Position numbers and translations under genes: made by a program
Assembly: GCA_045837725.1 (NCBI GenBank)
Contig: JBEWZL010000302.1
Span: 496,001 to 523,904, forward strand
Reading direction: 5' to 3'
DNA from: Vermamoeba vermiformis
Taxonomy: Eukaryota
DNA: 27,904 nt
Shown: one piece after another, positions 10,101 through 27,904 of the stretch
How the letters are laid out: the number at the start of each line of letters is the position of its first letter
How positions within the stretch are numbered: the stretch's first letter is position 1
The notes under the pieces: generated by a model
Told to the model about the DNA's origin: nothing
Database searches by the model: none
Seen by the model: the letters and a program-made list of their open reading frames with translations, nothing else

Positions 10101-11930
10101 TGGAAGATGTAAACAGTCTGGTTAGCCCATGGCTTGCCTACGAAGAGTTAGTTTGTGTTAGTTTAATCGTGGAGGACTTACCAGCTTGGTACGCGTGGAA
10201 AGATAACTGAGTTGTCTCATGGTGGTCGAGATAGATGTCCACTTGGTCGCCGTTGAACGTGACAGGCTCTTCGGTCAGAAGCGTGACTGTCTTGCCGGCC
10301 TTGTCCTTGGCCAAAGCCACAAATGTGCCCTCGCGCACCTGTTGGACGGTTGCTTTGCCTCGGAATGGAATCTCAACGATTCCATTGCGAGCGTTGTAAT
10401 ATTCGGTACTGTAAGGGATGTCTCCGATGAAGATTTGTTTGTTGTCTTTTGTGTTAAGGTACAGCTTGAACTCGCCGAAGTTGAACTTGGGACCCAGAGT
10501 CGGGACTAAGCTTGCGTCGAGGTTCTCGTATTTGCTAGCGACAGCCCAGTACTTGCTGTCGTCACGATTGGCGAATGGAACAGTGGCCAGCATGTCCATA
10601 GTAAGGATTTGCCTGAAGCGAATGTTAGAACTGATTTACGTTCAATCAGTAAGACATACGTCTTCTCGTCGACTTTAATCCACGAGGGAGAAAGATGTTG
10701 AGGCTGCTTGTCAGTACCAGCGCCAGGAATGGGATCCTTGTAAGTCAGCAAGCGACCTGAATTTCGAGTTAGGTCGATTTTGCAAGTGTTCTCGTCTCAA
10801 TCAGCAGTACCTGCAGGAACGCCCATGGGCTCATATACAGGCGCGTCAGGCACATCGCGATAGTTCCAAAGTTCGATCGTTCCATAGACGCTGCCATAGG
10901 CAGGAGTAGGAGGACGATCCAAGTTCTTAAGAGTCAACCAAATAGTCGGGTGGATGGTGTTGAATAACATGTAGCGAACGGAAATACCATCAGCGCGACC
11001 TTTGTCAAGAGCCTCTTTCATTGCTTTGAGCACCGGCGATGATTTGACAGCATCGTGATCAAGAGCCAGTTTTTCTTTTCGGATCACGAACTTGAACGAA
11101 CCAGAACAGCCTAAGTATGGTTAGATGCGTTTCAAAATGCTTTAAAGTACCTTCATTCTGCGGAACAAATGGAGTAGCCGGATAATTGACGGTTGAAATT
11201 TGATTGAAATTGAATATTCTGTTGTGCGAGATGGAAGGATCTGATCCTACAAGAACAGGGACTTGACCTAAACAGTGTAAGCAGCGATGTAAAACTTAGG
11301 TTTGAATCTTACCCGATGAACCTCCCAGGCGTAATTCTCCGCTGAAGATCTGTGATGTGTAAATTCCAGACATATCCAGATCAACCATTTTGGGCTTGGT
11401 GCGATTTCCATGCAGGAGGTGACCGAGCAACTCCACGGACATGCCAACCATTTTAGAATCATGCGCGACATTGCCGTCAATCTCAACTAAAAATTGCAAC
11501 GGTTAAGGATCTTGATATCTTATACTTAAAATTAAACTATATAACATAATTTATTTGAGTAAACGCGGGCAACAAACGCGAACTGAACTTTTAGAGACTT
11601 AAACGGTTTGAAGCAAATCCGGATTAACGGATCGTCCGACCAGAAACTAGCCTTACCTGACGTTACTTTAGTATCTTCCCACCAAAAGGAGTTCGATCCA
11701 TTAAGATTCCAATACCCAGCATTGCCAGGATTGTTAACGGAATCCGAGACCCACTTTTTGAACTCCTCATCCGTGTAGTTTGCTTGCAATGAACCGTCGG
11801 GATTCTTAATATACAATGCAAGGGTGCCAACGTCAATATTCTGACCGTGGTCATTATTGGAGGTTGGCACATCTGCGACGTATTTTCCTTTAAAATGAAT
11901 TCGCGGATTCGTCCAGCAATTCGAGGCCAT
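7165..11930 (-). CDS. vioB: VioB-like protein (iminophenyl-pyruvate dimer synthase / RebD-StaD family) with C-terminal ferritin-like domain; multi-exon
   Basis: Collinear matches to VioB as remembered: PRIHFKG..ADVPTSNND (VioB PRIHFRG..VNAPTANRD), TLGPKFNFG (DLGAKLPLG), NGIVEIP (HGIVDLP), VRVLPND (LRVLPDD), VLRYYYLLYPTM (VMAYYELVYPFM), FMPVTREMS (YMPSTRELS), LMLQYLFGAWS (VMLQYLYAAYS), QEMLH (EEMIH), EQGEGG, SHF. ATG at 11930, stop at 7165-7167, canonical introns. Confidence 0.88.
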
Positions 11931-12107
11931 TGTCGACAGTATTGTATAACACAATAAAATAATATCAATTGTGTTAACGTGTTTCTGAACACGCCGTTGA
12001 CAAACAAACGTGAGATATTTTTGTCTTCAAAGTTTTCCCGCTTCAAAAAAACGGTAATATTTTGTTACTGCCCTACAAACGTAACACCATAATACAAGTT
12101 ATTATAC

Positions 12108-14210
12108 ATGTATCTCAAGCTAACAGCCGTATTTGTGACGGTCGCTCTGCTCGTTTTCAGCGCTTTCGCTGACGACGACGCTGCTAGAACCCAGAAAACC
12201 TTGGATAGTAAGCTTGTTTTTACAACCACATTACTCAGATTTTAGTTACTAACTTTCCGTTTAATTTCAGATTTTTTCAAGGCCACCGAAACTTTAAACT
12301 GTGATCTGTGGGTCGACCAATTTGCCGACGATTACGTTATTCAGGATCCTGCTGATAGCCCGCCATTCAGTGGTACCAAGGCTCAATTGATGGAGAGTTG
12401 CTTGGAAGGAAATCCTAAGACTTTTGCTTGGATGAACGTTACCACTCAATACTTTATTACCGGCCTTTCTGCCTCTGCTCGCTGGAACGTGGCCGGAAAG
12501 AGCAAGGACGGCTGCCCCTTGACTTTCGGTAATATTTACCGCTCTTCACCAATGCCGTTAAATAAGTGCAATACTTAAATTTTTCTGAATAGGCGGAGTT
12601 GATTCATTCGTATTAAACAAGGCCGGAAAGATTAAGCAGCTTACTGGTTATTGGGATCCTTCTCAGATGCAAACTCAGCTTCTGTAAGTCAGCATCTGGA
12701 TTTTTGCCGTTTATGGAAAATTTTTATTTTGTTAACAAATTTATGTAGGTGCTCTAACCACACCAAGAAATTGTATGCCCGTACGATGGAGGTTTACTCG
12801 TACATCCATCAATTGGATGCCGATAAATGGGCCGCTCAATTTGTTCCCGATGCAGTTATGAGCTGCCCTATGTCCGCTCCCGCATATCATGGCCGCGAAG
12901 CTATCAGGTAATTACTTTATATAATGTAAATTTAACTTTAAGTCTGAAATCGCGTCAATCACCGGTAATCAGGTAAATATCTCGGTTATTTTTAACCTAT
13001 TCCAAATTTAGAGCTTACGCACAAACCGCTTTCTCGAACTACGATTACTACGATTACGTCATTACTAAGGACTTCGTTGTTGACGGTCAATCTGTTGTTT
13101 TCTGGCGTGTTGGTATGCCACCCGCAAACACTTTGAATTTCTTGCTGAACTTTTTCAATAGCTTCTGCCTCTTACCTTGGTTGCCGCATCAAGCTTTTGG
13201 CCTACAACACTATTATATACGACGAAGATCTTCAAATTACTGAGTGGCGCGATTACTTCGACGTAACCGAAGAGATCTCTCAGATGGTGAATTGCGAGAA
13301 TGGAACTAACCGCCCCGTTGCTCCTGTTTGGCCCAGCACTTTCGAGTCTGATTTCACTGGTAAGTCATGACGCTATTGTACTATCAACGACTAACAGCGA
13401 TTAGTTGAATTGGACATGTGGCCTGGCTTCGTTTCCAAGGGTCACTTGTGGTACGACTGGACCACTCGCTCGCAACGTGCCGACTACATCGGTAAGTCTT
13501 TTCAACCTGCTATATGCTCTTGCTAATCGAGGTAGACTGGTGCTTGCCTCTCACCGATCAATTGCCTCCCTTCATGAACTACACTTGCACGTACATCATG
13601 CGCGATCACACCACTTACTACATTGACAAGATCAACCCCGCCAAGCCCACTTGCTGCGTCTTTGATAACAGTACGTGTTTACATTCAATTTTTAGTGTTC
13701 CTGTGCTAATTTTCGTTGCTTTTAGACCTCCCTCCTCCAGTTCCTGACTTCGCATCCGGCATGACTTACAACGGCACAACTACCGTCGATGGCCAATTGG
13801 TCTCTTCTTGGTACTTGTTGGGCCCCTTCCCCTACGGTCCTTTCTATTACTGGGCCTCGGTGCAAAACAACTTACCCGTCAAGTTCAAGGGTCCCACTAC
13901 TCTCAACCAAACCACGCTCTCCTACAAGACTGTCAACATTCACCCCATTCCTACCGAAGCTTTTGCAGTCCCCGCTGATTGCACCAAGATTTGCGAGGTT
14001 CCCAACGACACTCCTGTAGACGGTTCCAAGCCTGCTCGAGTTCACCACCGCATGCACCACAACCACGTGCCTCATGCCTCGACCACGTCTCACAAGTCTT
14101 CTGGCAGTTCGGAAACCACAGTTGACGATCATGTGCACGACAATGTGAATCCTCATGACTATGCTAACGCTGCCCCTCAGCAATACTACACTGCCCACCA
14201 CGATGAATAG
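12108..14210 (+). CDS. Secreted protein: two SnoaL/NTF2-like domains + LolA-fold (ependymin-related/VioE-like) domain + His-rich tail
   Basis: Signal peptide MYLKLTAVFVTVALLVFSAFA. SnoaL repeats WVDQFADDYVIQDP...GKIKQLTGYWD and WAAQFVPDAVMSCP..YHGREAIR...ITEWRDYFD. From ~13313 PVWPSTFESDF..GHLWYDWTTRSQRADY..CC..PPVPDF..TYNGTTTVDG..LPVKF..FAVPADC. Tail contains HHRMHHNH. Confidence 0.8.
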
Positions 14211-14418: not shown

Positions 14419-17400
14419 ATGACGGCAACCACAAAGCCCATTGATTTGGACGAGCTCTTCCCAAAATACCTTGGGAGCCGCCAAGAAAAAGCTCGATTGG
14501 CCCTTTTGGGTCAGCCTGGCTTGATCTTCAAAAGTTACGACATGACCGGAAGCTACAAATATTTAAATATCAAGACCAAAAGAATGCTATCCGTCGAGAA
14601 CCGAGGTTTATTGAAGATCCATAAACTTTCGTATCCGTGGATCGTAACAATTCACCAGAAAGATAAGACAAATGACGAGATACAATTACACAATGTGGAA
14701 ACGGAGCAGACGAAGCGAGCAAGTTTAACACTTGGAGAAGGCGAGACGTGCAGCGTGCTTCTTTGTAACAGTTCTGGCATCCTTATCGTTACCGATAAAC
14801 AATTTTATTTTATCAATTATGCCACATTCGGCGAAGACAAACCTCGCACGATTGCTTTATCGAGCACAAAATTGCTTGAGAGGGCATCCAACCAATTTTC
14901 CGCTATCGAAGACAACAAAGCACTCATCGCAAACGGATGGCAGTTTCAACTTTGGGACATCGAGACAGGCAAATGCCTGAATACGGCAAATTTAGAGCGC
15001 GAAGAAGACCCAATGCCGTTCCAAATTCTCAGTCTGCGAGATGGGGTGGTGATCGGAAGCACTCTCAAAAAGCTTTACATGTGGACTGATTCAGGTAAAA
15101 TATCAAAAATTAATTAATTTAGGAATTTATTACACGTATTGGTTGACATTTTAGACGTCAATTTTTAAATTGAAATCAGTATTGAAAAAATCATCATTAA
15201 TTTTAATTTAAATTTTAACTTGCAGGCGTAAACTCAATCCAAATCCGCGATCCATGCTCTTGCTTCATTATAGATGATGGAAAATTATTCGTCGCAAGTA
15301 TTACCGGGCAGATCTCGGTTTACGAATTTCCAAAACCCGCCCTGGTGCGTGAGTTGAATGTTGGTGCTGCAGCTGGGATGAATTTTCTCGAGCAAATGCA
15401 AAGTAGCAGAATCAATGACTTGATTTACTTCGATGAAGTCCTATTTGCCATAACAGAAAACGGTATGACGGATGAGATCGCGAATTAGTTCCGAGTCTCA
15501 CACTTTTGCTCTCAGGCGACCTACAAGCGTGGAACACTACACAAGAAAACAGTACTGCTCCATTGAAGACGCAAACTTTGAAGGGAAAAGCGAAGAGAAT
15601 GATCAAACTCGACGGCAAGATCTATATTCTCGTCGTCCGCAAAGGCAAGCACGAAGAGCTGGTTCTCTACAATCCCCACGTCAAGAGATTGCTCGCCGCC
15701 AATGCAGTGTCCGCGAGCGCGAGCACGCCTTCTGTTGCTGCCGGTGAAGTGCGCAAGGACGGTTACTTGATGGTCAAGGCATACGACTCAAAGAAGGGCA
15801 AGCGACGATACGTGCAGCTCCGCGACAACATTTTGTACGAGTACTCATCGCCTAGCGTACGTAATTCTTTAGCACGATTGTATTATGCTAATCCTGAGGA
15901 CAGGACATCGCGCCACTTGGCACCTACGTGATGAGCCCTACTGCGAGCATTGAGGTCAGCGCCTCTAAAAAATCGAAACAAGGCTACGTCAGACTCCACT
16001 TGAACGACAAACAGTTCATTACTCTCAGCACTGATAACGCCGTCGAGGAAGACGAATGGTACAAGGCTCTGAATGCTTCCATCAAGGACTTGAAGTTCTC
16101 TTCGTTCGCGTACTCCGTGCCATTCACGAGCATTCAACTCGTGAAGGACGAGCGCGGTAATGTGATCAAGTTAGGCAAAGGAGCGGAGTCTTTAGTAGTG
16201 CGAGGTATGTTGATCACTATTTTTCGAAGCAAATCTAATGGTCTTCAAGCTTTGTTGAACGGTCGTGATGTTGCCGTGAAGCTTTTCAACCAGAACACTC
16301 CGTCAAAGATCTTCAAGAACGAAATCGAAATATTAAGGTACGTGCGGAGTACTTAGTGCAACTCAAGCTAACGGTATTTAGCGCGCTAAGACACCCGTGC
16401 ATTATGGAGCTTGTTGGTGCTTGCGTCAAGCAGCCCAACTTAGCACTCGTTCAGCCCTTGATGCTCCGAGGTTCATTGTATGACGCCCTTCACGGAGCCA
16501 AGAAGCTTGATCCCACGAAGTACACGTGGAAGTTGTACTTGAAGATTGCAAATGACATTGCTTCAGGTAAGTCAAATGCCTCTCTTTGGCGTTTATTCAA
16601 TAAACTAACGCGTCGTTGCAGCAATGAACTACCTGCACAACTTCACGTTGAACAACGTCAAACAGCCGATCATCCATCGTGATTTGAAACCTTCCAATTT
16701 GCTGGTCAACTCTTTGGATGCAGACAGCAATGCCGTGACAGTTAAATTGACCGATTTTGGTATCAGTGCTATTGATGCCAAGACTGAGACCAGCTCGAGC
16801 GGCACAACTGCGTACATGGCACCTGAAGTTCAAGAGCGTGGTGAGAGCGTGACCAAGTCCGATGTGTACAGCTTTGGCATTGTTTTATGGGAGATGCTCA
16901 CGCAAGCGGTGCCCCCTACTGTCAAGCGAGTCGCGTACGTATTGTGATTGCTGCTGAAGTGATCATACTAACCACAGTGACAGTAACGAGCACGCAAGGA
17001 GTATCGCCCCGAATTCATTCCCCGAGTATGCGCCTGCGGAATTAGTTTCGCTCATTCGAGGTACCAAACAACACAATGTGTTTAAGGCCGCTAACAGCTA
17101 TTTTAGAATGCACGTCCGTGTCACCGAACATGAGACCTACTTTCGAGGGTGTCATTGAACGTCTTATGGATTGCACTGTGGCAATGATTTCCAGCAACAG
17201 AATCAACGAGCCAGTGACCTCGCCAGCCACCGCCAATCAAAGTGCTACCAGCGGTTTGGTCATTCCCAACAAGCTCTACGGTCGCGAGCCTGAAATCAAG
17301 TCCGTATTGAAGGCATTCGATCGCTTCAAGAACGGAGCCAAGGAAATTCTGTTTATTAAGGGCTATGCTGGCATTGGCAAGTCCTCCTTCATTGAGAAGA

Positions 17401-20400
17401 TGAGTCAGTACGCTTCGACCCGTGGGTACGTCTGCAATGGTAAATGGACTCAACAACAGCGCCGCATCCCATACTTTGCCATCACTCAGGCATTGAGTGG
17501 CCTACTGAGATCAAAAGCGAAGACTTGGACTGACGAGGAGAAGCTCAATTGGAAGAACAAGTTCTTATACGTTTTTGAGGAAACATCTCGCCGCGTTCTT
17601 TTCGAGTTGGTCCCTGAAGCAAGGAAGATCGTGCACACTGCTGCGGAGACTACCGATTCTTTGGATGAAAGCGGCAGCGGCCCTGATATGGCCAATATCA
17701 GCAAGGACAAGTTCAACTACACCTTGGTTACGTTCTTCAAGATGCTCGCTACCAGTGAACATCCTCTGATCATTGCTTTGGACGACTTGCAATGGGCCGA
17801 TAGCGCAAGCTTTGATTTGATTACTGCTTTGTTCACCGATCCTTCGCTCAAGTACTTGCTGCTTGTTGGCACATACCGTGATAATGAAATTTCATCGAAG
17901 CATGGTCTGTTGGTAAGTGTAGAAGTTGCTTCTTGATCCACTGATCTAACTTTTCGTGCAGAATGCTCTTCAAGACATTAACGCAGCGCACATTACTTCA
18001 GTTGTCGAGGTTCGATTGCCACAGTTACAAAGCGATAGCGTGTTCAGAATGTTGTGCGATACCTTTAATGTCAAGTCTACTGACAAGAGTGAGCGTGGCG
18101 AGTTGACGGAGTTGGCAAGCATTGTCACCACTAAGACATTCGGCAATCCATTCTTCATTCATCAGTTCTTGCAAAGTTTGTTCTTAGATAAGCTCGTCAA
18201 TATCGACGCTCAACACCGTTGGTCTTGGAACTTGAAAGAAATCAAGGCATCAAAGGCCACCGACAACGTGTCCAGTATTGTTACGAAGAACATCAATGGC
18301 TTGTCTAAGAAGGCCATTCAATTACTCCGTCTCGCCAGCCACCTGACTTCCACATTCACGAGCAAAGTCCTTGCTGTGCTTAGCGTAGTTCAGCCAGAAA
18401 GCAAGTCTGTCTCGAAGCCATCGAGTGACGAGGTCAAGACTGTTGAAGAAGTATTGTCGGAGGCCGTGCAAAAGGGCTTGCTGTTCCTGAAGTCCAAGCA
18501 CACGTACAAGTTCGAGCACGACGAGATTCAACAAGTTCTGTATGGAATGATCGACAAGAACGAAAAGCAATCCACGCACTACGCTATTGGTCGCGCCTTC
18601 AACAAGATCATTCACTCAAGCAGTTTGGCCAAGAGCTTCCCTACGATCAGCTTGTTTGAAACCGTGCATCAACTTAATGCCGGAGCAGAGTTGATCAAAG
18701 ACCAATCCGAGTTCATTCAGCTCGCGCAACTCAACTTGGAGGCAGCAAAGATTGCCATTCACAAGATGATCGCGTTCGAGTCCGCCTACGGATTCTTGCA
18801 AGCTGCTATGAAGTATTTGGACCTGGAAAAAGGAAAGGGAACTAACGAGAAGGTTCACTGGAATCTCAACTACGAACTCTGCTTCTCAATCTATTTCGAG
18901 CTCCTCCACTGCGAGATTAATCAAGGTTTATTGAACGATGCTGAAGCTACCATCGAGTACTTATTCCAGAAGGTCGACAACAAGAACAAATTGCAAAAGG
19001 CTCGCTTGTACGAGATGAAGGTGCACTTGCAAGAGTCCAAATACCAACCCTTGGAAGCGTGTCAAACTGCGCTGGACTGCCTTAACTACTTGGGCATCTT
19101 ACCGGAGAAGACAATCGTCTTCGCGCTGCTTCAAAATCCCGCGCCTGTGTTCGCACTTGCCCAACAGGTCGATGCCTCCAAGATATCTCAAGCTGAGTTG
19201 CGTGCACGCGCTGCGAGATCGTTCGTTCAGCAAGTCACTCCCGAAGTCGATTTGGCCAACAGAGTTCTGCTCACCGCAATGATTTCAGGTAATTACTCGA
19301 ATGTCCGTAAATAACAGTACTAACAGAGTGTTGAATAGCGATTCTGAGTGGTATCGTCCCCGTGTCCAGTTTGTTCTCCCTATTATGGATGAAACTGATG
19401 CTCGAGAATCCCGGCTTAAAGGTGTCGCCTTATGCTCTCTTCGTCTACTCTTCGTATTGCATCAACTTCCGTGGCGATATGAACACGGCCGTTGATCTTA
19501 CACGCTTGGCATACAACCTCCTTCAAGACAGCAACGACCCTCATCGCGCCATTGCTTTGCTCAACACGGCCACGTACTTGGGTTTCAGAATGTTCCCGTA
19601 CAAGGACGTGCTCGTTAGCATGAACAAGGTCTACGAAATGGCCACTGAAGACGGTGCATTTGCCAGCGTTGGTTACGCGTGCATTCACGAGGTGTACATC
19701 ATGGTGATGGGCGGTGAGAATGTCTCACAAGCTATCGTCAAAGCCGAGAAATGGAAGGTCCTTATGCTTGCCAAGAGAAACTTCTTCATTGTGTTTGGTA
19801 TCAACATCTCATTGGCTATCTTGAAGCTATTGCGCGGCGACACGCTACACAACGATACTCTTACCTTCGAGGGTTTCAGTCAAGAGGAAACTGAAAGGGG
19901 TTTGACCCACATGCCTCCAGTTGCAGTGTTCACGTATTTAGTGTACAAGATGTTTGCCAAGGTAAGCGCAATTGTAGTGTCGATCAACAGCCCAACTAAC
20001 GAGCGAACCTAGTGTCTATTCAATCGCTGGGAAGAGGCCTATGAAATCCAGAAGCGCATTATCGCGGAGTGCGAGAACCCCATTAAGGGTTTCTTGTTTT
20101 ACGCGTTCTGGCTGTTCTTGGCTGCCCTAGTACCGCTCAAGCTGTACAAGAAGAATGTAACTTCAAAGACCAAGCGTCACGAGTACAGCGCGTTGTTTGA
20201 TGACTACATGAAGGTAGCTGCATAATGACAGTCTTATATACCTCGGTACTAATTAAATACGGTTATTAGCGCTTGAAGGAGTACGAGATGGGCGGTCAAA
20301 ATATTCAACACTGGCTGGACTTGTTGCACGCTGAAGAGCTTGCAAATTCGTTCTATCGACACCGCAAGCGAGTGTCCGTGCCATCGTCGACTAGCTTGAC

Positions 20401-21645
20401 GAGCAGTTCATCTAGCGCTGGTTCTCCTCTCCCTACAAACTCCTCGCCTAGTCTCACCCGAAAGGATGCCAAGACCAATCTTCAAGAAAAGAGCGAAAAG
20501 TCACACTTGAAGTATCTAGAGGCCACGCACTACTATAACAAGAGCAAAGAGCATGCCATCAAAGTTGGCAGCTTGGTATTTGCTGGATGGGCCGCGGAGT
20601 TCTGTGCTGACTTCTGCACCGACTTGGGCTGGGAAAGCATGACACGTGTTTATGCTTACGACGCGTTCAAACTCTACGAAGAGGCTTCTGCATCAAGCAA
20701 AGTTGAACACATCAAGAGCAATTACGACGATGTCCTTGCCGAGTTCACGAAAATCATTGGCACAACAGAGTCGAGCAGTGCTGTCGATGAAAGTTCTGTC
20801 AACCCTCATAGCATTCTACTCCTCAAGCAGTTTGGTCGTAACTTAATGTCACAAGTCAGAAATGAGACTAAAAACCCTAGCCTTCGTGATGCTATCGATG
20901 TGTACTCCGATTACATCACGAACATGGATCTTGCCTCGCTGACGACAGACTCAAGCGAGTTAAGTTCAGCAAGCAGCACGATCTCAACCAGCTTGGAGAC
21001 GTCGCGAAGCACGGTAAGTTGCAACCACGAATAATTAAGTGCATTCGTTTTACTGACAAGTCTCTTAGGAAATTCAAGTTGAAAAAGAGCTCGCAAGCAC
21101 GCTGAACATGGTCAAACTAATTCAGCAGGTGTCAAATCCTGATGTCGATATTACACACTCGCTCAGCTTATTGATCCCCAACAACATTTGTCTCCCGTTG
21201 CTCTTGACGCCTGCTAATTTCAAAGAAATCATTACGATTTACACGGTCGCTTTCATAGTGAACTTCGGTCAGCATCCCAAGTATCACCTGGCTTTATTCT
21301 TGTACGTACTATCAGCTTTAATTGTTAACTCTGGCTAATTAATTACTTTCAGAGAGCCTAGTGCTGAACTGCGAATAGTGTTCCAGCTAACGGACTTTAT
21401 CCCGAAAGAAACATCTGTGCCTCTCCAGGGCGAGACTGCCGATGTGCCTGTTGGAGTTAAAAACTCATTACGACCAAGTAAGTTGCTTGCTTTGTTATTG
21501 TTTGAACAAAAACTAATGCCACTTTACAGTTGAGCAATTGTTGGATAGTGTTCAAGCAGAGTTCAGCTATTGTCGTGTGGTTAGAGATCAATACATTCAG
21601 CATGTGCTCAAGATGACTTGTGCTTTCCATGCTTCAGACAAATAA
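14419..21645 (+). CDS. Large multidomain protein: WD40-like beta-propeller, PH, TKL protein kinase, STAND/AAA_16 NTPase, TPR-like helical region
   Basis: LWDIETGKCL-type repeats. PH: KDGYL..KRRY..EWYKAL (~15750-16090). Kinase motifs GKGAES, VAVK, HRDLKPSN, DFG, APE, SDVYSFG (~16160-17170). LYGREPE, Walker A GYAGIGKS, Walker B LDDLQWAD, GNPFF, FEHDEIQ. The exons checked join in frame through GT-AG introns to TAA at 21643-21645. Confidence 0.88.
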
Positions 21646-21983
21646 GACATTGCTTTGTAATAAATTATTTTTCATTGAATTGAGCCTATTAAAACACTCA
21701 AACAGTACACAATTTTCTTTTGAATGAGGTGGCTTCTCTTATCCCATTCAAAGGTCTGGGCTGTAAATCATCCCTAAGCCTTTATTTGATTTAGTAGTCT
21801 GTAATTAACAACTGACCAAAAGTTCATGTCAGACAATCAAGAACAAAACAAGCTGCCATGTAAAGAAAAACTGAATGAAGCCTTTCAGCCAAATGAACAT
21901 CTCAATTATCCAATTGACACACTGAAGGACTCTTGCTTGGGACCCAACTTTTTCCTGTGGGAACAGGTAATCTTCATGCAGTC

Positions 21984-22417
21984 TCAATCTGGATGCCTTT
22001 GATTTGATAGTCTATGGTTGGGGATGCAAAATGCAGTGGCAATTTTTTTTGGTGATGGATACCATGGAAAACAAAATGGCAACCATTTTGCCACCTGTTC
22101 ACTGTGGTAAACATGTACTTCAAGTGTTCTTAATTGATGCAGAACTTGATGGCACCAATTGATGTGCCAGGCTAGATGACATTCTTGCCGCTCTTGTCCT
22201 TGTCCCAAGGTGAAGGCATGTTGAGCATGAACATTACCAGCTGATGCAAGTGCACCTGGTACATCATTTTGCTGTGCTGATTGGTAATTGAAATGCTGGG
22301 CAAAAAGTTCAGCATAGGAATGATGCAGCCAGAGTCCAACAGGACTGTGTGGTCTGACAGGCTGTGGTAAAGTTTGCCTTGGAAAAAAACTTGGTCAGGT
22401 GTGTGGGATTTTGTCAA
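21984..22417 (-). pseudogene. Decayed His-Me finger (His-Cys box homing endonuclease-like) gene fragment
   Basis: Minus-strand reading VHLHQLV...KFCIN*EHL...VNRWQNGC with in-frame stops resembles the CxNPxHL...N..RNxC motif of zf-His_Me_endon proteins. It lies in a CpG-depleted tract. Confidence 0.45.
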
Positions 22418-23113
22418 ACCTTGCCAAGTTGTATGTGGGTATTGTATGGAATAAAAATAAAAAACTTAAGTAGGGAAGAAAAACGTTTTTTTCTATGGTG
22501 CCTCCTTCACCAAAGCTTGTAGTTAGCTCCACTCTCCTCCAACCTTTTTGCAAGCCTTATTCACTCAAGGAAGAACATGCTGCAATGTTTGGGGCAAACA
22601 TTAACTTTACTTATTTTAATTTCCTTCATGTTAGGTTGTTTTTACTTAATATAGGTTAATAACTGTTTATTATAGGTACATCAGTTTGACCTAATTTACT
22701 TGTGTGGTCTGTGCAAATAGAACTTGGGGTATCAAATCCTTCTTCATGCTTTTGACTCTGAGCTGGAGATTTGTGGTGAAGGACACTGCATCCAGTCTAA
22801 AGAACACCTGAGTGTGTATGCAAGATGTCTTACCTAGAGATCCAGAGTTGGATTGTTTCTCAGGGATAGGAGACTTCAGGAACTCATGGTCACTAGAAGA
22901 CAGTGGAAGATCCATCTGAGATGCGCCCAAGAAAGTGGTTGGCCTAGTCAGGATAAGGTACTTACATATCAGGATGAATGTCTTCTAGCTTCCTGATGAA
23001 TATTAAAAATTTAGTAAGCCAAGATCCACTCAAGATCGAGTACTGAAAAAAAGACAATTTGCTAAAAATAAACTGAGAGGAGGAAATATCGATTTCTAGT
23101 GCTTAATATACAT

Positions 23114-23141
23114 CAGTCGCGGCCAAAAGTATCGCCCCGTC
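23114..23141 (+). mobile_element. Possible left terminal inverted repeat of a Tc1/mariner-type element
   Basis: CAGTCGCGGCCAAAAGTAT resembles Tc1-like termini (CAGT..GGCCAAAA) and marks an abrupt return of CpG. It is not directly preceded by TA and no partner TIR was seen in the window. Confidence 0.35.
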
Positions 23142-23265
23142 ACTTGACTAGGGCCATTTCCGGTAGGAGAAAGTTTGCATGGCCAAAACGGGCGTTTATT
23201 ATCAGCATATGCTTATTATTTAGCATATGCTAAAATGTATCGAAAACATATGATGAACTAGATAT

Positions 23266-24132
23266 GGCAAGATCCATGAGTCTCAGCTCACATGGAATGG
23301 CCAAATATACATCAACCTGTGATAAATTGGACAAATGCAACGCAAAAAAAGTGGATGCAGTTAAAAAACTGCAAAATGGAGAGCAAAAATAAACAGCAAA
23401 AAAAATTCCTTGGAAGTGACCTGAGTTAATTATTCAAACTTTGTGTGGTCTTGCACACCGATTTTTCCAGCATCCAACAGCAACATCCTAAACAAATGCG
23501 GCCAAATCATAATGTATCTGGAGGGCAAGTACCAAAAAACTAGCAAAATTGTTGCTTTAACATAACAAATACTGAGCACCAACAAGAACAAAACACCTCA
23601 GAAAAATAAAAAAGTTACATATGCAACAGTGGGGTTTGAACCTGCGCCCTAGGGCTTCTGAGGGGCAAGCAAAAACGTGTGGCGCGTTTTTACTCCTTGA
23701 CAAACAATTTCTGAAGAAATTTTTACAAAATTGCACCTGTTTTGCAGTATTTTGTCAGTTCTTTGAGCTTCTGGAGTAAAAACGCGCCACGCGTTTTTGC
23801 TAGTGGTGATAACTTCCTCAGAAAGGCAACAATTATCCATTAATTTGTTGCCTTGCTGAGGCCCCAAAATGCTTATCCATACCCTCCATTGTGTTGGCAT
23901 TGCTGAAACATGATGTCTGGTTGGTGAAAAATCCTGACCTCAGGTGAGGAAGATTGAGTTATTCTGTCTGTCTGAGACTCCCAAGTCCTCAGACTACAGG
24001 TGAAAAAATTGCAATTTTATGCTGTTTAAAAATTCCATTCCCATTTATTTTTAGAGAAGTTTTGCTGTTTAGATACAAAAATAAATGGGATGAAAAAAGA
24101 CCCCAGTTGAGCTGAGACTCGTGGATCTTGCC
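23266..24132. mobile_element. Non-autonomous TIR element (MITE), 867 bp
   Basis: 25-bp TIRs GGCAAGATCCA(T/C)GAGTCTCAGCTCA at 23266-23290 and 24108-24132 (one mismatch), flanked by ATAT on both sides. No credible ORF inside. Confidence 0.85.
23668..23801. repeat. 29-bp inverted repeat with 76-bp spacer inside the MITE
   Basis: AGCAAAAACGTGTGGCGCGTTTTTACTCC (23668-23696) and GGAGTAAAAACGCGCCACGCGTTTTTGCT (23773-23801), one mismatch. Confidence 0.9.
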
Positions 24133-24189
24133 ATATGTAAAATAGCATATGAACCAGAGCATATGCAATTTATTAATTAAAAAACAATT

Positions 24190-24634
24190 TTACTTTTTCT
24201 TCTTTTGCTGCAGGAGTGCCAGTTGTTGCTTCAATTTGCGCTCCTTCTCATTGTCAGAGTCATTTTCAGAGATTGATGACTCTGGATCAGCTGTAAGGGT
24301 AGGAGGAGGGAGGAGAATGTAAAGACTGAACAGACATTAGAATGCAAGATCTGTTTAAGTTTGAAACTTACGTCTTTGTATCCTGGCGACTCAAATGTAC
24401 TAAACCAAGTTGATCTAGCTTGAGAAGTTGCATTTTAACATGATCCTTGTGTAGCCCTAGAATTCGAGAATTAGATACATATGATTAAATACATATGATT
24501 AAATACATATGCATTTTACCAGTATCGTTGGTAACTGTTGTGCATTATATAGGATTTAGGGCTGGGGGTGTGGTTGCGGGCGTAGAAGGCCCGTAAATCG
24601 TGCTGGGTTACGCCCCGGAAAAAACCGGCAAAAT
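24190..24634 (-). pseudogene. Small spliced gene, winged-helix-like segment plus acidic/basic tail; apparent frameshift, 5' end unresolved
   Basis: Introns 24519-24457 and 24371-24326 (GT-AG with CTAAT) give TVTNDTGLHKDHVKMQLLKLDQLGLVHLSRQDTKTLYILL...ENDSDNEKERKLKQQLALLQQKKKK*. The upstream part of exon 24634-24520 is open only in another frame. Confidence 0.5.
24472..24511. repeat. Short tandem repeat (ATACATATGATTAA, ~2.7 copies) in an intron; CATATG motifs also cluster at 23205-23252 and 24146-24165
   Basis: Direct reading of the sequence. Confidence 0.8.
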
Positions 24635-24699
24635 CTGGCACGAATTGGAAAGAATTAGAACATAAACGCATTATTTTATTTAATGCTAGGCATGAACAG

Positions 24700-27600
24700 A
24701 GAGCCCAAACAATGGGCTTTAAGGTGATATTTGTTATTTGAGATAGCGCGGCGAGGTAAGTCTGAAATCGGAATTATTCCGGCGGGGATCAGAACGCCCC
24801 GGATCAAAAAGTTTTTTAATACGCGTTTATTTTGGTTAATTTTGATTAAAAATGATAGTTATTGGCAACTACTAACGCGTAGTATTGCCAGAAAAAATTA
24901 GAAAAATCGCGACGGTGAAATAACGTCGCGTAGATCTGAACACTCAAAACGGTCAGATCTGAAGAAATTGATAGTAAATATGGCGTTAATAATACGTAAG
25001 TATCACCATAAAATCATTATTTTATTTTTTATCGCGGTTCTGATTCGGATTCCGATTTCGCATCGGATTCAAAACCGCGAGATCAGCGAAATTCTCGCAA
25101 ATAAATGCATTAAATAATGTTAAAAGTATTGTTAATCACTTTTATTACAGTTTGGAGTCATTAACTTCGATCTGACAAGTCCGTTTCCGGATACGAACTT
25201 GTCACTAAAAATAGTGCAACGAGAGATCGACCACAAGGGTCGAATTATTGATTGTTTATTGCCGATTAACAGCAGGCAGTCACGCGCCGCGGCACCAGAG
25301 CCGTTCAGCGCGAGTTATTTTCGATGTTACAGTGATGCGATTTTGGATTTACAATACTTCGATCACAACGGTCGAATTATTGTATTAATTAGATATATTA
25401 GTGACAATAAACACGCGCACAACGATATTCAGCGTCGTTGCAGCGCGGCTTTCAACTCAGCAATTTCTCGCGCCTAAATCTCGGTGCAGCGACCGAGATC
25501 TTAAAAGGTAATAATTATCCTATCATCCTTCCACCATTTATAATACATAGAAATCGTTAATTCAATTATTGATTTTTCAAATTAAAAATTAAAGATCCGG
25601 ATTAGAGCTTAGTGCTCGAATTTTTATTAAAATAGTATGTAATTATATGTAACGCATTGCTCTAATATTAATTTTTTATTACAAGATTGATTACAAAAAC
25701 ACGAGCGCGATCGAAAGTTTTCTTGACTTTCGTACCGCGAGATCCCGACCACCAATGGTCGTTTCAGTGTATACTGGTACTTTTCGTTCGTGTCCCGCTG
25801 CGGGGGCGATCACTACTGCTCGCCGACGGGGTCGGTAACTAGATGGCGAGTTCGAATCTGCCCAGGCCCTGGAAATAATTCAGTAAGTATTTAAATATAT
25901 TCAATAGCGATGAAATAATCGTACCAATGCGTCGATTATTAATTTAAAAATCAAGATAATTTTTTTAAAATTAGTGAAATCGGATCGAGCTTCGTGCTCG
26001 TGCAAAATTTAAATAATTGTTTTTTTTATTACTAATACTACATACTAATGCCTATTTAATAGGTTATTTGAGCGTCAATACGAAGACGCTTGTTCTAGAT
26101 CGAGCGCGAGGTAGATCGCTCGATCCCCGTCACTTTATCAAGCGTAAGTAGCTTAAATATATTGCCTTAATAGTGGTTAACATCCTAACGCTGCTTGTTT
26201 AGGCGTCAAAAGTTAACAAGAACGGATCTCGAACGTGATCTTCTCGCGTTATCAGATCCGTTACATCACCCATAATAGCCCGGTAAGTGCGTCTACAGTT
26301 AGATATTGTTTAATACTAACCCGTTATATTACTAGAAATAACGAAGACGACTACGGAGAAAAAATTTAGTGATCGAGATCCAACGCGTCTCGATCTTTCA
26401 AAATTTATATGGAGAGCATCGATTGCTCTAACGGTAAGCAGTACTCCTTATATATTAACATTTAAACTCATTGATACTAATTTTACGCGTAGGAGATGAC
26501 ACGGAGCTCCTTGCCCAGAGATCGGGTTGCGACATCCCGCTCTTTCAAAAGTTAGTGACGCGCATCGATCGCGTCGAAAGTAAGTAAAATTGATTTATAA
26601 TAATTAATCATTGTTATTTAATATACTAACGTTTTAATCTGTAGATTTGATCGCGGCACTGATTACACCAAGTAGGCCGGGTCGTAAAACTGTTAGAGCG
26701 CATTTATTGCGCAAAAGGTAAGACCAACGCAATTTATATGATAGGTGCGTTGTACTGATTAATTTTTTTAATAGAATGAGTGGCTTTACGGACTTAACGG
26801 ATCTGCGATCTGTTCACTACGTGCCGTAATTTTTCATCAATAGTAACGCTATTTAGAACGGTAAGTAACCAGATTAATAGTATATGGCTCTTAATAACGC
26901 GTTATTTTAGCAGATCCTATCAAAACCCTTTCATGGCGAGACTGTACGCGGATCCGAAAAAATTGAATGGCCTTATTCAAAGGCTACTTAAGGTAAGTAA
27001 AGATCGTTTAACATAACCCTTAATATCGTATTTATCGCTAATTGTAATTACAGAGCTTCGTTGATGCGATCACGGATCTCTCATCAGATCTGACCCGCGA
27101 AGAAAAGTCAGTCGTTCGCTAACAATCTCAGAGGTAAGTTAATATTATTATTTTATATTCTAAATACTAACACGTTATATTATTAAAATAGGTGAATGGT
27201 TAATTTAAAAGAACAGACGCGGATCGAGCAGTAACATCCAGATCCGTTAAACTGTACATAGCGCGTATCGATCGCGCTAAGAGTAAGCGTACCGTAATAT
27301 ATATTTATATTACATTATATTTATTAATTGTTTTTAGTTGAAAGAGAGTTTTTACGGCAAATCGGATCCGCGATCTGTTACAACTTTGCGCCGTCGTTGA
27401 AGTCAAAGACTACGCCAAACAACAAGGTAAGTTATCAAAATCAATAGTATACGGTAAACATTATTGACTTGTGTTATTAGAATTACTCAAAATACGTTTG
27501 TTATTGCTCGGAACCGGATCGAAGAGAGCACATCTCGATCCGTAAAAATTTTAAGTAATCGCATTGATCGCGCCAAAGGTAATTATATCTTAATGAATTT

Positions 27601-27904
27601 TAATTTTACAATATTCTAATTGATAATTATACTCAGAATGAGAGCGTGTACGGACTTGACGGATCGTGTTGCACTGGTCACGTCGCTAAATTTCTAGCAC
27701 TGTTACACAAGAGTAAGTTGTTAGCAAGCAATGTTTAATTAAGTATAGTGGAGCTAACATTTGATTATGTAGAACGCGAACGAGTTTAGTTGCCGGCGGA
27801 TTCGGTCATTAAAAATGCACGATCTCAGCAAAACGAACACAACTGAAAGGTAAGTTTGAAATTTGTTATTTATTGATAGGTTTTTATACTAAGCTTTGAT
27901 TAAG
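24700..27904 (+). ncRNA. Putative multi-exon spliced long non-coding RNA with repeated hairpin exons; continues past the window end, start approximate
   Basis: 17 donor sites (mostly GTAAG) at 24756, 24996, 25508, 25883, 26144, 26283, 26434, 26580, 26718, 26861, 26993, 27134, 27283, 27427, 27579, 27713 and 27850. Each is followed by an AT-rich intron, usually with a CTAAY/CTGAY-type branch, and an AG acceptor. Exons 26203-26282 and 27192-27282 have stops in all three frames. Confidence 0.7.

What the first reader, a model, noticed from the sequence alone, without database searches (positions are those of the whole stretch)
24700..27904. Seventeen-intron, non-coding, ~140-bp periodic exon array: candidate new structured lncRNA system
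Seen: 17 successive introns with canonical signals like those of the host genes. From 26063, 13 exons of 73-98 nt alternate with 50-65-nt AT-rich introns (donor spacing 132-152 nt). Exon lengths do not keep frame, and at least two exons are closed in all three frames. Exons are CpG- and GATC-rich and mostly self-complementary, unlike the decayed DNA nearby. Inference: splice sites kept without an ORF suggest selection on an RNA; splicing would concatenate hairpin modules into a scaffold, decoy or small-RNA precursor, possibly combinatorially. I know no described family like it.
Basis: partly seen in the sequence, partly recalled or inferred. Interest (0 to 1): 0.9.

Follow-up and report, generated by a model that had tools for sequence, protein, structure and literature searches.

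The report
Tandem non-coding exon-intron array
A eukaryotic locus made of some twenty ~140-base repeat units, each a short hairpin-rich exon plus a tiny well-kept intron, has no protein-coding capacity and is most likely an unannotated spliced non-coding RNA gene, but whether it is transcribed could not be tested.

Summary
From 26063 to the window end, 13 exons of 73-98 nt alternate with 12 complete introns of 50-65 nt and one cut by the window end. Twelve of 13 donors are GTAAG, 12 of 12 acceptors are YAG, and donor spacing is 132-152 nt. Intron-like triplets number 14 on the + strand, 1 on the - strand, and 2.8 on average in shuffles.

Every coding test failed. These were fully spliced ORFs, alternative-site and exon-skipping ORF paths, host codon usage, stop density, Pfam and a 1.84-billion-protein search.

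The units are old duplicates. Exons fall into related types, and intron interiors are barely above random identity. Yet splice signals survive in AT-rich introns, which argues for selection on splicing.

Exons are CpG-rich (observed/expected about 1.8-2.0), enriched about 20-fold for CGGATC, and hold more short hairpins than shuffles. Covariation support is modest, and no test separates RNA from DNA palindromes.

No RNA run, orthologue, paralogue or Rfam family was found. My best reading is a spliced modular lncRNA (confidence about 0.45). Rivals are a long-dead repeat gene, splicing-only cis regulation, and an inert repeat. I rate it a new variant of repeat-built lncRNA genes, interest 0.6.

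The parts
24544..24715 (.). Putative divergent promoter region between a small - strand two-exon ORF and the first array exon. It has a TATATAAT on the - strand at 24544-24551 and an AT-rich TATA-like stretch on the + strand at about 24670-24688.
   Evidence: Read from the sequence. This is inference only; no transcript data.
24716..24755 (+). First exon. Its 5' end is uncertain. It ends at the first GTAAGT donor.
24756..24882 (+). Intron of 127 nt: GTAAGT, TACTAAC at 24870, TAG at 24880-24882. It contains GC-rich hairpin modules.
   Evidence: z -1.5.
24883..24995 (+). Exon of 113 nt with two adjacent hairpins (7-bp and 8-9-bp stems).
   Evidence: MFE z -4.6 on +, -3.7 on -.
24996..25150 (+). 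Intron of 155 nt, GTAAGT..CAG. It encloses a hairpin with 19-nt arms at 25032-25080, which looks like a unit whose inner splice sites were lost.
   Evidence: inverted repeat I7; z -3.7.
25151..25507 (+). Long exon of 357 nt. It looks like about three fused units: a 24-nt repeat recurs at 132-nt spacing, with AT-rich spacers that lack a donor. It holds a 113-codon ATG-less open frame (25136-25477) with no homologue.
   Evidence: direct repeat D9; z -5.5 on +, -3.5 on -.
25508..25685 (+). AT-rich stretch starting GTAATA. It is one long intron or two, around a 40-nt GC-rich module (25595-25634) with a GAGC/GCTC hairpin.
25686..25882 (+). Exon of 197 nt, GC- and CpG-rich, with several short hairpins.
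   Evidence: z -1.6.
25883..26062 (+). AT-rich stretch starting GTAAGT and ending TAG. It is one intron or two, around a short module homologous to the one at 25595-25634.
   Evidence: D4, D12.
26063..26143 (+). E1, 81 nt, with a 9-bp stem hairpin.
26144..26202 (+). Intron I1, 59 nt, GTAAGT..CTAAC..TAG.
26203..26282 (+). E2, 80 nt, with a 9-bp stem around CGGATC/GATCCG. Closed in all three frames.
   Evidence: (z -3.7).
26283..26335 (+). Intron I2, 53 nt, GTAAGT..TACTAAC..TAG. Its 3' part is homologous to that of I8.
   Evidence: z 11; D3.
26336..26433 (+). E3, 98 nt, B-type, two hairpins.
26434..26492 (+). Intron I3, 59 nt, GTAAGC..TACTAAT..TAG.
26493..26579 (+). E4, 87 nt, B-type, two hairpins. 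The second ends 4 nt before the donor.
26580..26644 (+). Intron I4, 65 nt, GTAAGT..TACTAAC..TAG.
26645..26717 (+). E5, 73 nt, B-like. A hairpin ends 5 nt before the donor.
26718..26774 (+). Intron I5, 57 nt, GTAAGA..TAG.
26775..26860 (+). E6, 86 nt, A-type. Closed in all three frames.
   Evidence: (D5, D17).
26861..26910 (+). Intron I6, 50 nt, GTAAGT..TAG.
26911..26992 (+). E7, 82 nt, with a hairpin near its 3' end.
26993..27053 (+). Intron I7, 61 nt, GTAAGT..CAG.
27054..27133 (+). E8, 80 nt. Closed in all three frames.
27134..27191 (+). Intron I8, 58 nt, GTAAGT..TACTAAC..TAG.
27192..27282 (+). E9, 91 nt, B-type, two hairpins. The second ends 3 nt before the donor. Closed in all three frames.
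27283..27337 (+). Intron I9, 55 nt, GTAAGC..TAG.
27338..27426 (+). E10, 89 nt, A-type.
   Evidence: (E6-E10 z 10.3).
27427..27480 (+). Intron I10, 54 nt, GTAAGT..TAG.
27481..27578 (+). E11, 98 nt, B-type, with an 8-bp first hairpin.
27579..27636 (+). Intron I11, 58 nt, GTAATT..CAG.
27637..27712 (+). E12, 76 nt, A-type.
   Evidence: (D5).
27713..27772 (+). Intron I12, 60 nt, GTAAGT..CTAAC..TAG.
27773..27849 (+). E13, 77 nt, the least structured exon.
   Evidence: z +0.8.
27850..27904 (+). Intron I13, starting GTAAGT and cut by the window end. The array probably continues beyond the window.

Best explanation
The locus is an unannotated, multi-intron, non-protein-coding transcription unit on the + strand. 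It was built by repeated tandem duplication of a ~140-bp unit made of one short exon and one minimal intron.

Shown here: the repeat ancestry, the intact splice signals, the absence of coding capacity, and an excess of short hairpins in the exons.

Inferred:
- The unit is transcribed, probably from a divergent promoter at about 24550-24715.
- Its introns are removed.
- Selection acts on that removal.
- The mature RNA is a chain of interchangeable ~80-nt modules. Many modules carry two 5-9-bp hairpins joined by an A-rich linker.

I think this RNA most likely works as a multivalent nuclear scaffold or decoy for one or a few RNA-binding proteins. The many strong introns would secure its processing and accumulation.
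For: 1. Intron array far beyond chance and strand-specific. The count is 14 on + against 1 on -, with shuffles averaging 2.84 and never exceeding 7 in 300. Twelve of 13 donors are GTAAG and 12 of 12 complete introns end in YAG. Host introns are of the same type.

2. The units are old duplicates.
- Exons form related A and B types, with pair z-scores up to 10.3 and a mean of 1.41 over 78 pairs.
- Introns keep only traces of homology. I2-I8 has z 11, and one repeat family (D3) covers four intron 3' ends, including the intron at 24868.
- Intron interiors average 0.584 identity against 0.554 shuffled.
- Their GC is 0.14-0.34, yet the G residues of the donor and acceptor persist.

3. No sign of coding.
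- The 1098-nt spliced product has stops throughout all three frames, and its longest ORF from an exon start is 210 nt.
- Four of 13 exons are closed in every frame.
- There are 50 stop triplets in the exons against 48.5 +/- 4.6 in shuffles.
- The codon log-odds (best of three frames) is -0.04. Host coding scores +0.28, and non-coding controls score -0.07 and -0.01.
- ORF threading with alternative sites gives 752 nt against 504 +/- 154 with shuffled exons; 7% of shuffles reach the observed value.
- With exon skipping the best path is 400 nt against 316 +/- 102; 25% of shuffles reach it.
- Pfam gave nothing at E < 0.1 for 10 open frames.
- The 113-codon frame has no true relative among 1.84 billion representatives.

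4. Structure.
- Exon MFE z averages -1.01 on +. Introns average -0.07 and host coding +0.21.
- Upstream exons have z of -4.6, -5.5 and -1.6.
- The longest perfect stem averages 6.23 bp against 5.00 +/- 0.25 (0 of 200 shuffles reach it). In the last 40 nt it is 4.62 against 3.60 (0 of 300).
- For the two-hairpin model on five B-type exons, 80% of cells pair against 73.6% shuffled (6 of 500 shuffles reach this). Six pairs change on both sides against 3.4 expected (14 of 500).
- The spliced RNA has z -2.8.

5. Exon composition is held apart from the introns without any coding need. CpG observed/expected is 1.81 and CGGATC occurs 10 times against 0.5 expected.

6. The z-score is lower on + than on - for 12 of 16 exons. 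This is only a weak hint of RNA-level pairing.
Against: - No expression or splicing data exist for this locus.
- No orthologue or paralogue was found, so conservation between species is untested.
- Whole-exon identity is no further above random than intron identity: exons 0.555 against 0.519, introns 0.584 against 0.554. Constraint on exon sequence is therefore weak or local.
- With G-U allowed, stems are no longer on + than on - (7.38 against 7.85). The palindromes could act as DNA or be a mutational by-product.
- Covariation rests on five sequences and on a structure derived from those same sequences. In addition, the second hairpin shifts register between copies.
- Permuting exon order gives equally or more stable folds (-331 +/- 5 against -322), so there is no order-specific architecture.
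- Some modules lie inside introns (24756-24882, 24996-25150). Two units seem to have lost their donors (within 25151-25507). Inclusion of a module, and splicing of every unit, are therefore not strictly required.
- E13, E8 and E4 are not more structured than shuffles.
- Nothing identifies a binding protein.
Confidence: 0.45

Rival explanations
1. It is a long-dead protein gene. Under this reading the array is the remnant of a gene for a repetitive protein with one repeat per exon, now decayed beyond recognition.
For: Tandem arrays with one repeat per exon are typical of repeat proteins (from my own knowledge). Some exon pairs share peptide-like strings with apparently synonymous differences, for example the 3' ends of E9 and E11 read in one frame. 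Nine of 13 exons keep one open frame. The threaded ORF is somewhat longer than the null, with 7% of shuffles reaching it.
Against: Stop density equals random expectation (50 against 48.5). Codon usage is at the non-coding level. Nine of 13 exons with an open frame is about what chance gives; my estimate is 0.64 per exon. Conserved nucleotide blocks sit in different frames in E3 and E4, because a 1-nt length difference lies between the shared blocks. Variable columns in the 26-nt family D1 fall 6, 2 and 5 on codon positions 1, 2 and 3 (my count). There is no homologue. A gene this decayed should have lost many of its 13 donors and acceptors, yet none is lost.
Confidence: 0.15
2. Splicing or transcription itself is the function. 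The locus would be a cis-acting element whose dense strong introns recruit the splicing machinery and thereby affect neighbouring genes or local chromatin. The mature RNA and its hairpins would be incidental.
For: Splice signals are the best-kept features. Exon sequence overall is hardly more conserved than intron sequence. Exon order does not matter for folding. The possible divergent promoter shared with a small - strand ORF fits this picture. Cases where lncRNA splicing, not sequence, acts locally are known (recalled: Engreitz et al. 2016, not read here).
Against: It does not explain the sharp CpG- and GC-rich exon composition, the 20-fold CGGATC excess or the hairpin excess. No effect on neighbouring genes can be assessed here.
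Confidence: 0.15
3. It is an inert DNA repeat. A tandem satellite-like or mobile-element-derived array happened to be seeded by an exon-intron fragment. Its palindromes would act at the DNA level or arise by template switching, and any transcript would be noise.
For: The region is built from short direct and inverted motifs. Palindromic 6-mers occur at 24 per kb against 16 in host DNA. There is no strand asymmetry in stem length. The array lies next to a CpG-depleted, probably repeat-derived block. The whole-array RIP-type indices are 1.09 and 0.75; they pass the thresholds I recall (0.89 and 1.03).
Against: Neutral decay cannot keep 12 of 13 GTAAG and 12 of 12 YAG in introns whose interiors are near random identity and 14-34% GC. 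The signals are strictly on one strand. Within exons the RIP-type index TpA/ApT is 0.73, like the host's 0.75. No further copy of either exon type occurs elsewhere in the 27.9-kb window.
Confidence: 0.15
4. It is part of a larger coding gene. The array would be an extremely intron-rich leader of a coding region beyond the window end, or a coding gene read in some unusual way.
For: The array runs off the window, so downstream content is unknown.
Against: A leader with 17 or more introns and many upstream ATGs and stops would be without precedent, as far as I recall. Host genes in the window are read normally by the standard code.
Confidence: 0.05
5. It is a small-RNA precursor. Exon hairpins or introns would be processed into small RNAs, as in a miRNA or mirtron cluster or a snoRNA host.
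For: Periodic arrays of this layout host snoRNAs or miRNAs in other organisms. In SNHG14, 29 and 48 consecutive introns each give a snoRNA (PMC11608373; I saw the search listing and the start of the abstract only).
Against: The introns are 50-65 nt and unstructured, with mean z -0.07. Perfect stems in exons are 4-9 bp. Rfam gave 0 matches at gathering scores and 0 at E <= 5. I saw no consistent C/D or H/ACA boxes on inspecting the sequences.
Confidence: 0.05

Closest known systems
snoRNA host-gene arrays, such as SNHG14 with the SNORD116 and SNORD115 clusters (PMC11608373; search listing and start of abstract seen)
   Same: A long non-coding gene built from tandemly duplicated units, each with a non-coding exon and an intron, so that dozens of consecutive introns are kept.
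   Different: In those arrays the intron carries the functional RNA (a box C/D snoRNA) and units are kilobases long. Here the introns are minimal (50-65 nt), AT-rich and unstructured with no Rfam match. The exons are the GC-rich, hairpin-bearing part.
Repeat-module lncRNAs: Xist A-repeat, NORAD repeat units, FIRRE repeats (recalled, not read here)
   Same: A non-coding RNA made of repeated short structured or protein-binding modules. The modules are thought to act multivalently, and their order is not critical.
   Different: In those RNAs the modules lie within large exons. Here nearly every module is a separate exon flanked by its own intron, and no binding protein or motif is known.
Introner elements (PMC9860276; search listing and start of abstract seen)
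   Same: Many short introns of similar size at regular spacing in a protist genome.
   Different: Introners are families of near-identical introns dispersed in unrelated genes. Here the intron interiors are almost unrelated, with mean pair z 0.68 and one strongly similar pair (z 11) among 78. The repeated thing is the whole exon-intron unit.
Tandem arrays of mutually exclusive exons, Dscam-type (recalled)
   Same: Tandemly duplicated similar exons. A sequence in an upstream exon (25168-25184) is complementary to the conserved motif of A-type exons (88% over 17 nt), which is reminiscent of docking and selector pairing.
   Different: Those exons are coding, of equal length and in the same frame. 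Here lengths are 73-98 nt and there is no ORF. By my estimate the complementarity is near chance level for a region this size.
Earlier scan note e1-635933 (Naegleria gruberi: a row of seven evenly spaced splice donors in a non-coding gap)
   Same: An apparent chain of small introns in an unannotated non-coding stretch of a protist genome, also without transcript evidence.
   Different: It is another genome with fewer units. It is an unchecked AI note that I did not test.

Membership tests
snoRNA or miRNA host-gene array | Tandemly repeated non-coding exon-intron units | tested here: met
snoRNA or miRNA host-gene array | Each intron carries a structured small RNA (box C/D, H/ACA or a pre-miRNA hairpin) | tested here: not met
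   Introns are 50-65 nt with mean MFE z -0.07. Rfam gave 0 matches at gathering scores and 0 at E <= 5.
Introner elements | Introns form a family of closely similar sequences | tested here: not met
   Intron pair mean z is 0.68, with one pair at z 11. Interior identity is 0.584 against 0.554 shuffled.
Introner elements | Copies dispersed in many unrelated genes of the genome | not testable with these tools
   No genome is held for this window.
Repeat-protein gene or its pseudogene | An open reading frame through the spliced exons, or residual depletion of stops | tested here: not met
Repeat-protein gene or its pseudogene | Host-like codon usage or protein homologues | tested here: not met
   (-0.04 against +0.28); the only hit, P0004, is an artefact of summed weak matches to a perfect tandem repeat (BLASTP E 5.2).
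Mutually exclusive exon cluster | Variant exons of equal length and frame within a coding gene | tested here: not met
   Exon lengths are 73-98 nt and there is no ORF.
Structured RNA family in Rfam | A match to a curated covariance model | tested here: not met
Spliced long non-coding RNA | Transcribed and spliced, with no translated ORF | tested here: inconclusive
   Absence of an ORF is shown. Transcription and splicing could not be tested, because no RNA run was listed.
Spliced long non-coding RNA | Conserved secondary structure supported by covariation | tested here: inconclusive
   6 pairs change on both sides against 3.4 expected (14 of 500 shuffles). This rests on five paralogous exons only, with a structure derived from them. 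No orthologues are available.
RIP-mutated repeat (fungal repeat-induced point mutation) | High TpA/ApT and low (CpA+TpG)/(ApC+GpT) | tested here: inconclusive
   The whole array scores 1.09 and 0.75. Exons alone score 0.73 and 0.89, and the host 0.75 and 1.17. The thresholds are recalled, and the host may not be a fungus.

The most novel reading that the evidence does not exclude
This is a previously undescribed kind of RNA gene in a protist. Tandemly duplicated exon-intron units each contribute one ~80-nt two-hairpin module, and every one of the many minimal introns is kept by selection. Splicing assembles a long multivalent hairpin chain and could vary its module content. The RNA would act as a scaffold or decoy for a dedicated RNA-binding protein.
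Probability: 0.25. Interest if true: 0.85.

Novelty: new variant of a known kind. Interest (0 to 1): 0.6.

Why it matters
If the locus is transcribed and spliced as predicted, it would be a clean natural case of selection keeping more than a dozen introns in a gene that encodes no protein. That bears on a standing question: whether splicing of lncRNAs is functional in itself, or only serves to assemble the RNA.

It would also show that repeat-module lncRNAs, known mainly from animals, arise in intron-rich protists, and with a one-module-per-exon layout that has not been described. That layout makes module number and choice open to regulation by splicing.

If instead the locus turns out to be silent, it would be a caution. 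Splice-signal arrays in repeats would then be able to persist for reasons we do not understand.

Tried and rejected
- RNA evidence: no RNA holder was listed for 24600-27904.
- Own genome: none is held, so paralogous arrays could not be sought.
- Synteny in relatives: a metagenome scan with the C-terminal exon of the upstream NTPase gene gave 146 pattern matches, none confirmed.
- DNA motif scans with the conserved A-type exon motif gave 0 hits in metagenome contigs and 0 in prokaryote genome contigs. A shorter motif gave 7 single hits in viral contigs, which I judge to be chance and did not follow up.
- Earlier scan notes: nothing by place or by sequence, and nothing for one word set. Two other word sets gave one loosely parallel note.
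- The 113-codon frame in 25136-25477 has no Pfam match. Its one hit among 1.84 billion representatives (P0004, E 3e-15, 10 stretches) is a perfect ~100-aa tandem repeat that sums weak matches. BLASTP gives E 5.2, so I rejected it.
- Names of relatives of the NTPase gave no organism. The Atlas points to diatom-like relatives for the NTPase but is uninformative for the kinase, so the host taxon stays open.
- Other scans: tRNA scan 0; Tandem Repeats Finder found no ~140-bp array because the copies are too diverged; the bacterial promoter and terminator scan is not meaningful here.
- RIP as the sole cause of the composition was rejected, because the exon TpA/ApT equals the host's.
- C/D or H/ACA boxes, tRNA-like arms and UNAAAC-type motifs were looked for by eye in the exon sequences. 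They were found only sporadically and I dropped them.
- Literature searches for a described equivalent found none. This covers only the open-access library searched, and supplements were not consulted.


Full report
**1. What is there**

The window is eukaryotic. No prokaryote-type genome is held for it. Its genes carry short GTAAGT..CTAAC..YAG introns of about 30-110 nt. The genes include hybrid histidine kinases, a response regulator and a STAND/AAA_16 NTPase. The nearest Atlas clusters for the NTPase are mostly diatom, which is a lead only.

- 13 exons of 73-98 nt;
- 12 complete introns of 50-65 nt and a 13th cut at 27904;
- GTAAG donors in 12 of 13 introns (GTAAGT in 9) and GTAATT in the other;
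- TAG (10) or CAG (2) acceptors in 12 of 12 complete introns;
- branch-like CTAAC, CTAAT or similar motifs before most acceptors;
- donor spacing of 132-152 nt.

The same unit continues upstream to about 24716 in less regular form:
- Introns lie at 24756-24882 and 24996-25150, and each encloses GC-rich hairpin modules.
- A 357-nt exon (25151-25507) looks like three fused units. A 24-nt repeat recurs in it at 132-nt spacing, followed by AT-rich spacers without a donor (D9).
- Two ~180-nt AT-rich stretches (25508-25685, 25883-26062) each surround a small homologous GC-rich module.

**2. More than chance**

An intron-like pattern (GTAA[GT], branch, YAG at natural distances) occurs 14 times on the + strand of 24700-27904 and once on the - strand. 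In 300 dinucleotide shuffles the mean was 2.84 and the maximum 7. Twelve of the window's 23 + strand GTAAGT lie at or after 24756, and no - strand copy lies beyond 24371.

**3. The units are diverged duplicates**

- Exons fall into an A type (E6, E10, E12) and a B type (E3, E4, E9, E11, with E5 and E7 more distant). Local-alignment z-scores reach 10.3, with a mean of 1.41 over 78 pairs (repeat families D1, D2, D5 and D17).
- Introns are mostly unalignable, with mean z 0.68. I2 and I8 are an exception (z 11). One repeat family (D3) covers the branch-to-acceptor part of four introns, including the one at 24868, so the whole locus shares one ancestry.
- Global identity is only slightly above shuffled for intron interiors (0.584 against 0.554) and for exons (0.555 against 0.519).
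- Profiles of the A and B exons find no further copy in the other 24 kb of the window.
- Tandem Repeats Finder misses the array because the copies are so diverged.

**4. Not coding**

- The 1098-nt spliced product has stops throughout all three frames. Its longest ORF from an exon start is 210 nt.
- Four of 13 exons are closed in every frame.
- Stop triplets in the exons number 50 against 48.5 +/- 4.6 in shuffles, so there is no residual depletion. The rates are 4.55 per 100 nt in the exons and 2.93 in host coding sequence.
- A codon log-odds score trained on host ORFs gives -0.04 for the best frame of 16 array exons. Host coding chunks score +0.28 (sd 0.17), the neighbouring non-coding block -0.07 and host antisense -0.01.
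- With any YAG 30-130 nt after a strong donor allowed as acceptor, the best ORF is 752 nt, against 504 +/- 154 with shuffled exons (7% of 200 shuffles reach it). With looser sites it is 908 nt against 671 +/- 170 (7%).
- With exon skipping the best path is 400 nt through 5 of 13 exons, against 316 +/- 102 (25% of shuffles reach it).
- Ten open frames of the region have no Pfam match below E 0.1.
- The one long frame (113 codons, no ATG, in the fused exon) has a single hit among 1.84 billion representatives. That hit is a protein made of perfect ~100-aa tandem repeats, whose ten weak matches add up. BLASTP gives E 5.2, so I discard it.
- Shared nucleotide blocks of E3 and E4 lie in different frames, because the sequence between them differs by one base. 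The conservation is therefore at the nucleotide level.

**5. Selection on splicing (inference)**

Intron interiors are 14-34% GC and near random identity. Even so, the G at donor positions 1 and 5 and the G of the acceptor are kept in essentially every unit. Neutral decay that erased the interiors would have erased many of these. The sharp switch in composition coincides with the splice sites in a locus with no coding constraint: exon GC is 0.39-0.55 with CpG observed/expected 1.81, and introns are AT-rich.

I considered a RIP-like mutation bias, since GTAAGT, TACTAAC and TAG contain no CpA or TpG. The whole array passes the usual indices (1.09 and 0.75; thresholds recalled). However, exon TpA/ApT (0.73) equals the host's (0.75). 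A mutation bias therefore does not explain the exons.

**6. Structure**

*Exon folding compared with controls*
- Exon MFE z-scores average -1.01 on + and -0.56 on -. Introns average -0.07 and host coding chunks +0.21.
- The upstream exons are more structured, with z of -4.6, -5.5 and -1.6 on + and -3.7, -3.5 and -0.7 on -.

*Stem lengths*
- The longest perfect stem per exon averages 6.23 bp against 5.00 +/- 0.25 (0 of 200 shuffles reach it). Within the last 40 nt it is 4.62 against 3.60 (0 of 300).
- In five exons (E3, E4, E5, E6, E9) this hairpin ends 3-7 nt before the donor.

*The B-type module and its covariation*
- Many exons show a first hairpin built on CGGATC...GATCCG, an A-rich linker, and a second hairpin.
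- CGGATC occurs 10 times against 0.5 expected, and GATC 44 times against 17.
- On an alignment of five B-type exons, this two-hairpin model pairs 80% of cells against 73.6% in shuffles (6 of 500 reach it). Six pairs change on both sides against 3.4 expected (14 of 500). Slid controls pair 29-45% of cells.

*Caveats*
- There are only five paralogous sequences.
- The structure was derived from those same sequences.
- The second stem shifts register between copies.
- Stems with G-U allowed are no longer on + than on - (7.38 against 7.85).

*The spliced RNA as a whole*
- The spliced RNA folds at -322 against -295.8 +/- 9.3 (z -2.8). Permuting exon order gives -331 +/- 5, so the folds are local and interchangeable.
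- The z-score is lower on + than on - for 12 of 16 exons, which is only suggestive.

*Known RNA families*
- Rfam has no match at gathering scores or at E <= 5, and no tRNA was found.

**7. Context**

The upstream NTPase gene ends near 21640. A CpG-depleted block follows (21600-24550, CpG observed/expected 0.27).

On the - strand, 24432-24193 can be read as a small two-exon ORF with a 46-nt host-type intron. A TATATAAT lies about 110 nt upstream of its ATG. The array's first donor is at 24756 on the other strand. A shared divergent promoter at about 24550-24715 is therefore plausible but not shown.

**8. What could not be done**

- No RNA run was listed.
- No genome is held.
- Scans for the orthologous locus or for the exon motif found nothing in metagenome contigs or prokaryote genome contigs. 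Viral contigs gave only chance singles.
- Earlier scan notes hold nothing for this place or sequence. One unchecked note describes a row of seven splice donors in a Naegleria non-coding gap (e1-635933), which is a loose parallel.
- Literature searches found no described equivalent in the open library. Searches supplied the comparison cases, for which I saw only listings and abstract starts.

**9. Reading**

The best-supported account is a spliced non-coding RNA gene made of duplicated exon-intron units whose splicing is under selection. Its exons contribute short hairpin modules, and I favour a multivalent scaffold or decoy role (confidence 0.45). The function is inference, and the ORF-less spliced architecture is what the sequence shows.

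Rivals and their confidences:
- a long-dead repeat-protein gene (0.15);
- a locus where splicing or transcription itself is the function (0.15);
- an inert DNA repeat with inherited introns (0.15);
- part of a larger gene (0.05);
- a small-RNA precursor (0.05).

**10. Comparison and novelty**

The layout resembles snoRNA host-gene arrays, but the introns are empty. In its proposed working it resembles repeat-module lncRNAs, but each module is its own exon. It fails the defining tests for introners, mutually exclusive exon clusters, miRNA or mirtron clusters and repeat-protein genes (see the membership table).

I rate it a new variant of a known kind, with interest 0.6. It is a clean and statistically solid oddity, but it has no expression or cross-species evidence yet.

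Noticed in passing
window 21600-24550: This block is strongly CpG-depleted: observed/expected is 0.27 overall and 0.07 in 22001-23000, with TpG 1.46 and CpA 1.29. It lies between host-like DNA (1.06) and the CpG-rich array (1.9-2.0). It has no Pfam match in six open frames. It holds a tRNA-like stretch around 23625-23660 on the - strand (read by eye; ARAGORN finds no tRNA). It is probably an old methylated repeat or mobile-element remnant.
   Followed up: partly
window 24193-24432 (- strand): A possible small two-exon gene of about 67 codons. The ATG is at 24432, a 46-nt GTAAGT..CAG intron spans 24324-24369, the tail is Lys-rich and the stop is at 24193-24195. A TATATAAT box lies at 24544-24551. 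The gene is divergent from the start of the array. No homology search was run.
   Followed up: partly
window 25136-25477 (+): A 113-codon open frame without ATG lies inside the fused exon and contains an internal repeat. It has no Pfam match and no true homologue, and its codon score is at the non-coding level. It is probably chance; my rough estimate is about 0.1-0.2 such frames expected in a region of this size and composition.
   Followed up: yes
P0004: A phmmer E-value of 3e-15 arose purely from ten identical tandem repeats each giving a weak match; BLASTP gives E 5.2. This is a reminder that summed scores against perfect-repeat proteins mislead.
   Followed up: yes
window 25168-25204 against 26788-26803 and 27650-27666: The most conserved motif of the A-type exons has an inverted, 81-88% complementary copy in the long upstream exon, where it forms half of a local hairpin. 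It could be long-range pairing or just an inverted unit fragment. By my estimate it is near chance level.
   Followed up: partly
window 11617-11642: An AT-rich spacer of a - strand gene region contains ATCCGGATTAACGGATCG. It shares a 10-mer with the array module at 25596 and resembles the A-type motif. The nhmmer profiles gave no significant hit there.
   Followed up: partly
window 12100-14210 (+): A typical host gene with many short AT-rich introns and a Pro/Thr/His-rich C-terminal exon. It was useful as the local standard for intron signals and was not analysed further.
   Followed up: no
window 17076-21640 (+): A STAND/AAA_16 NTPase gene with TPR-like repeats. Relatives at 86-87% identity sit on large metagenome or assembly contigs (P0002, P0003, and cluster members on contigs up to 478 kb). 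These contigs would be the place to look for an orthologous array.
   Followed up: partly
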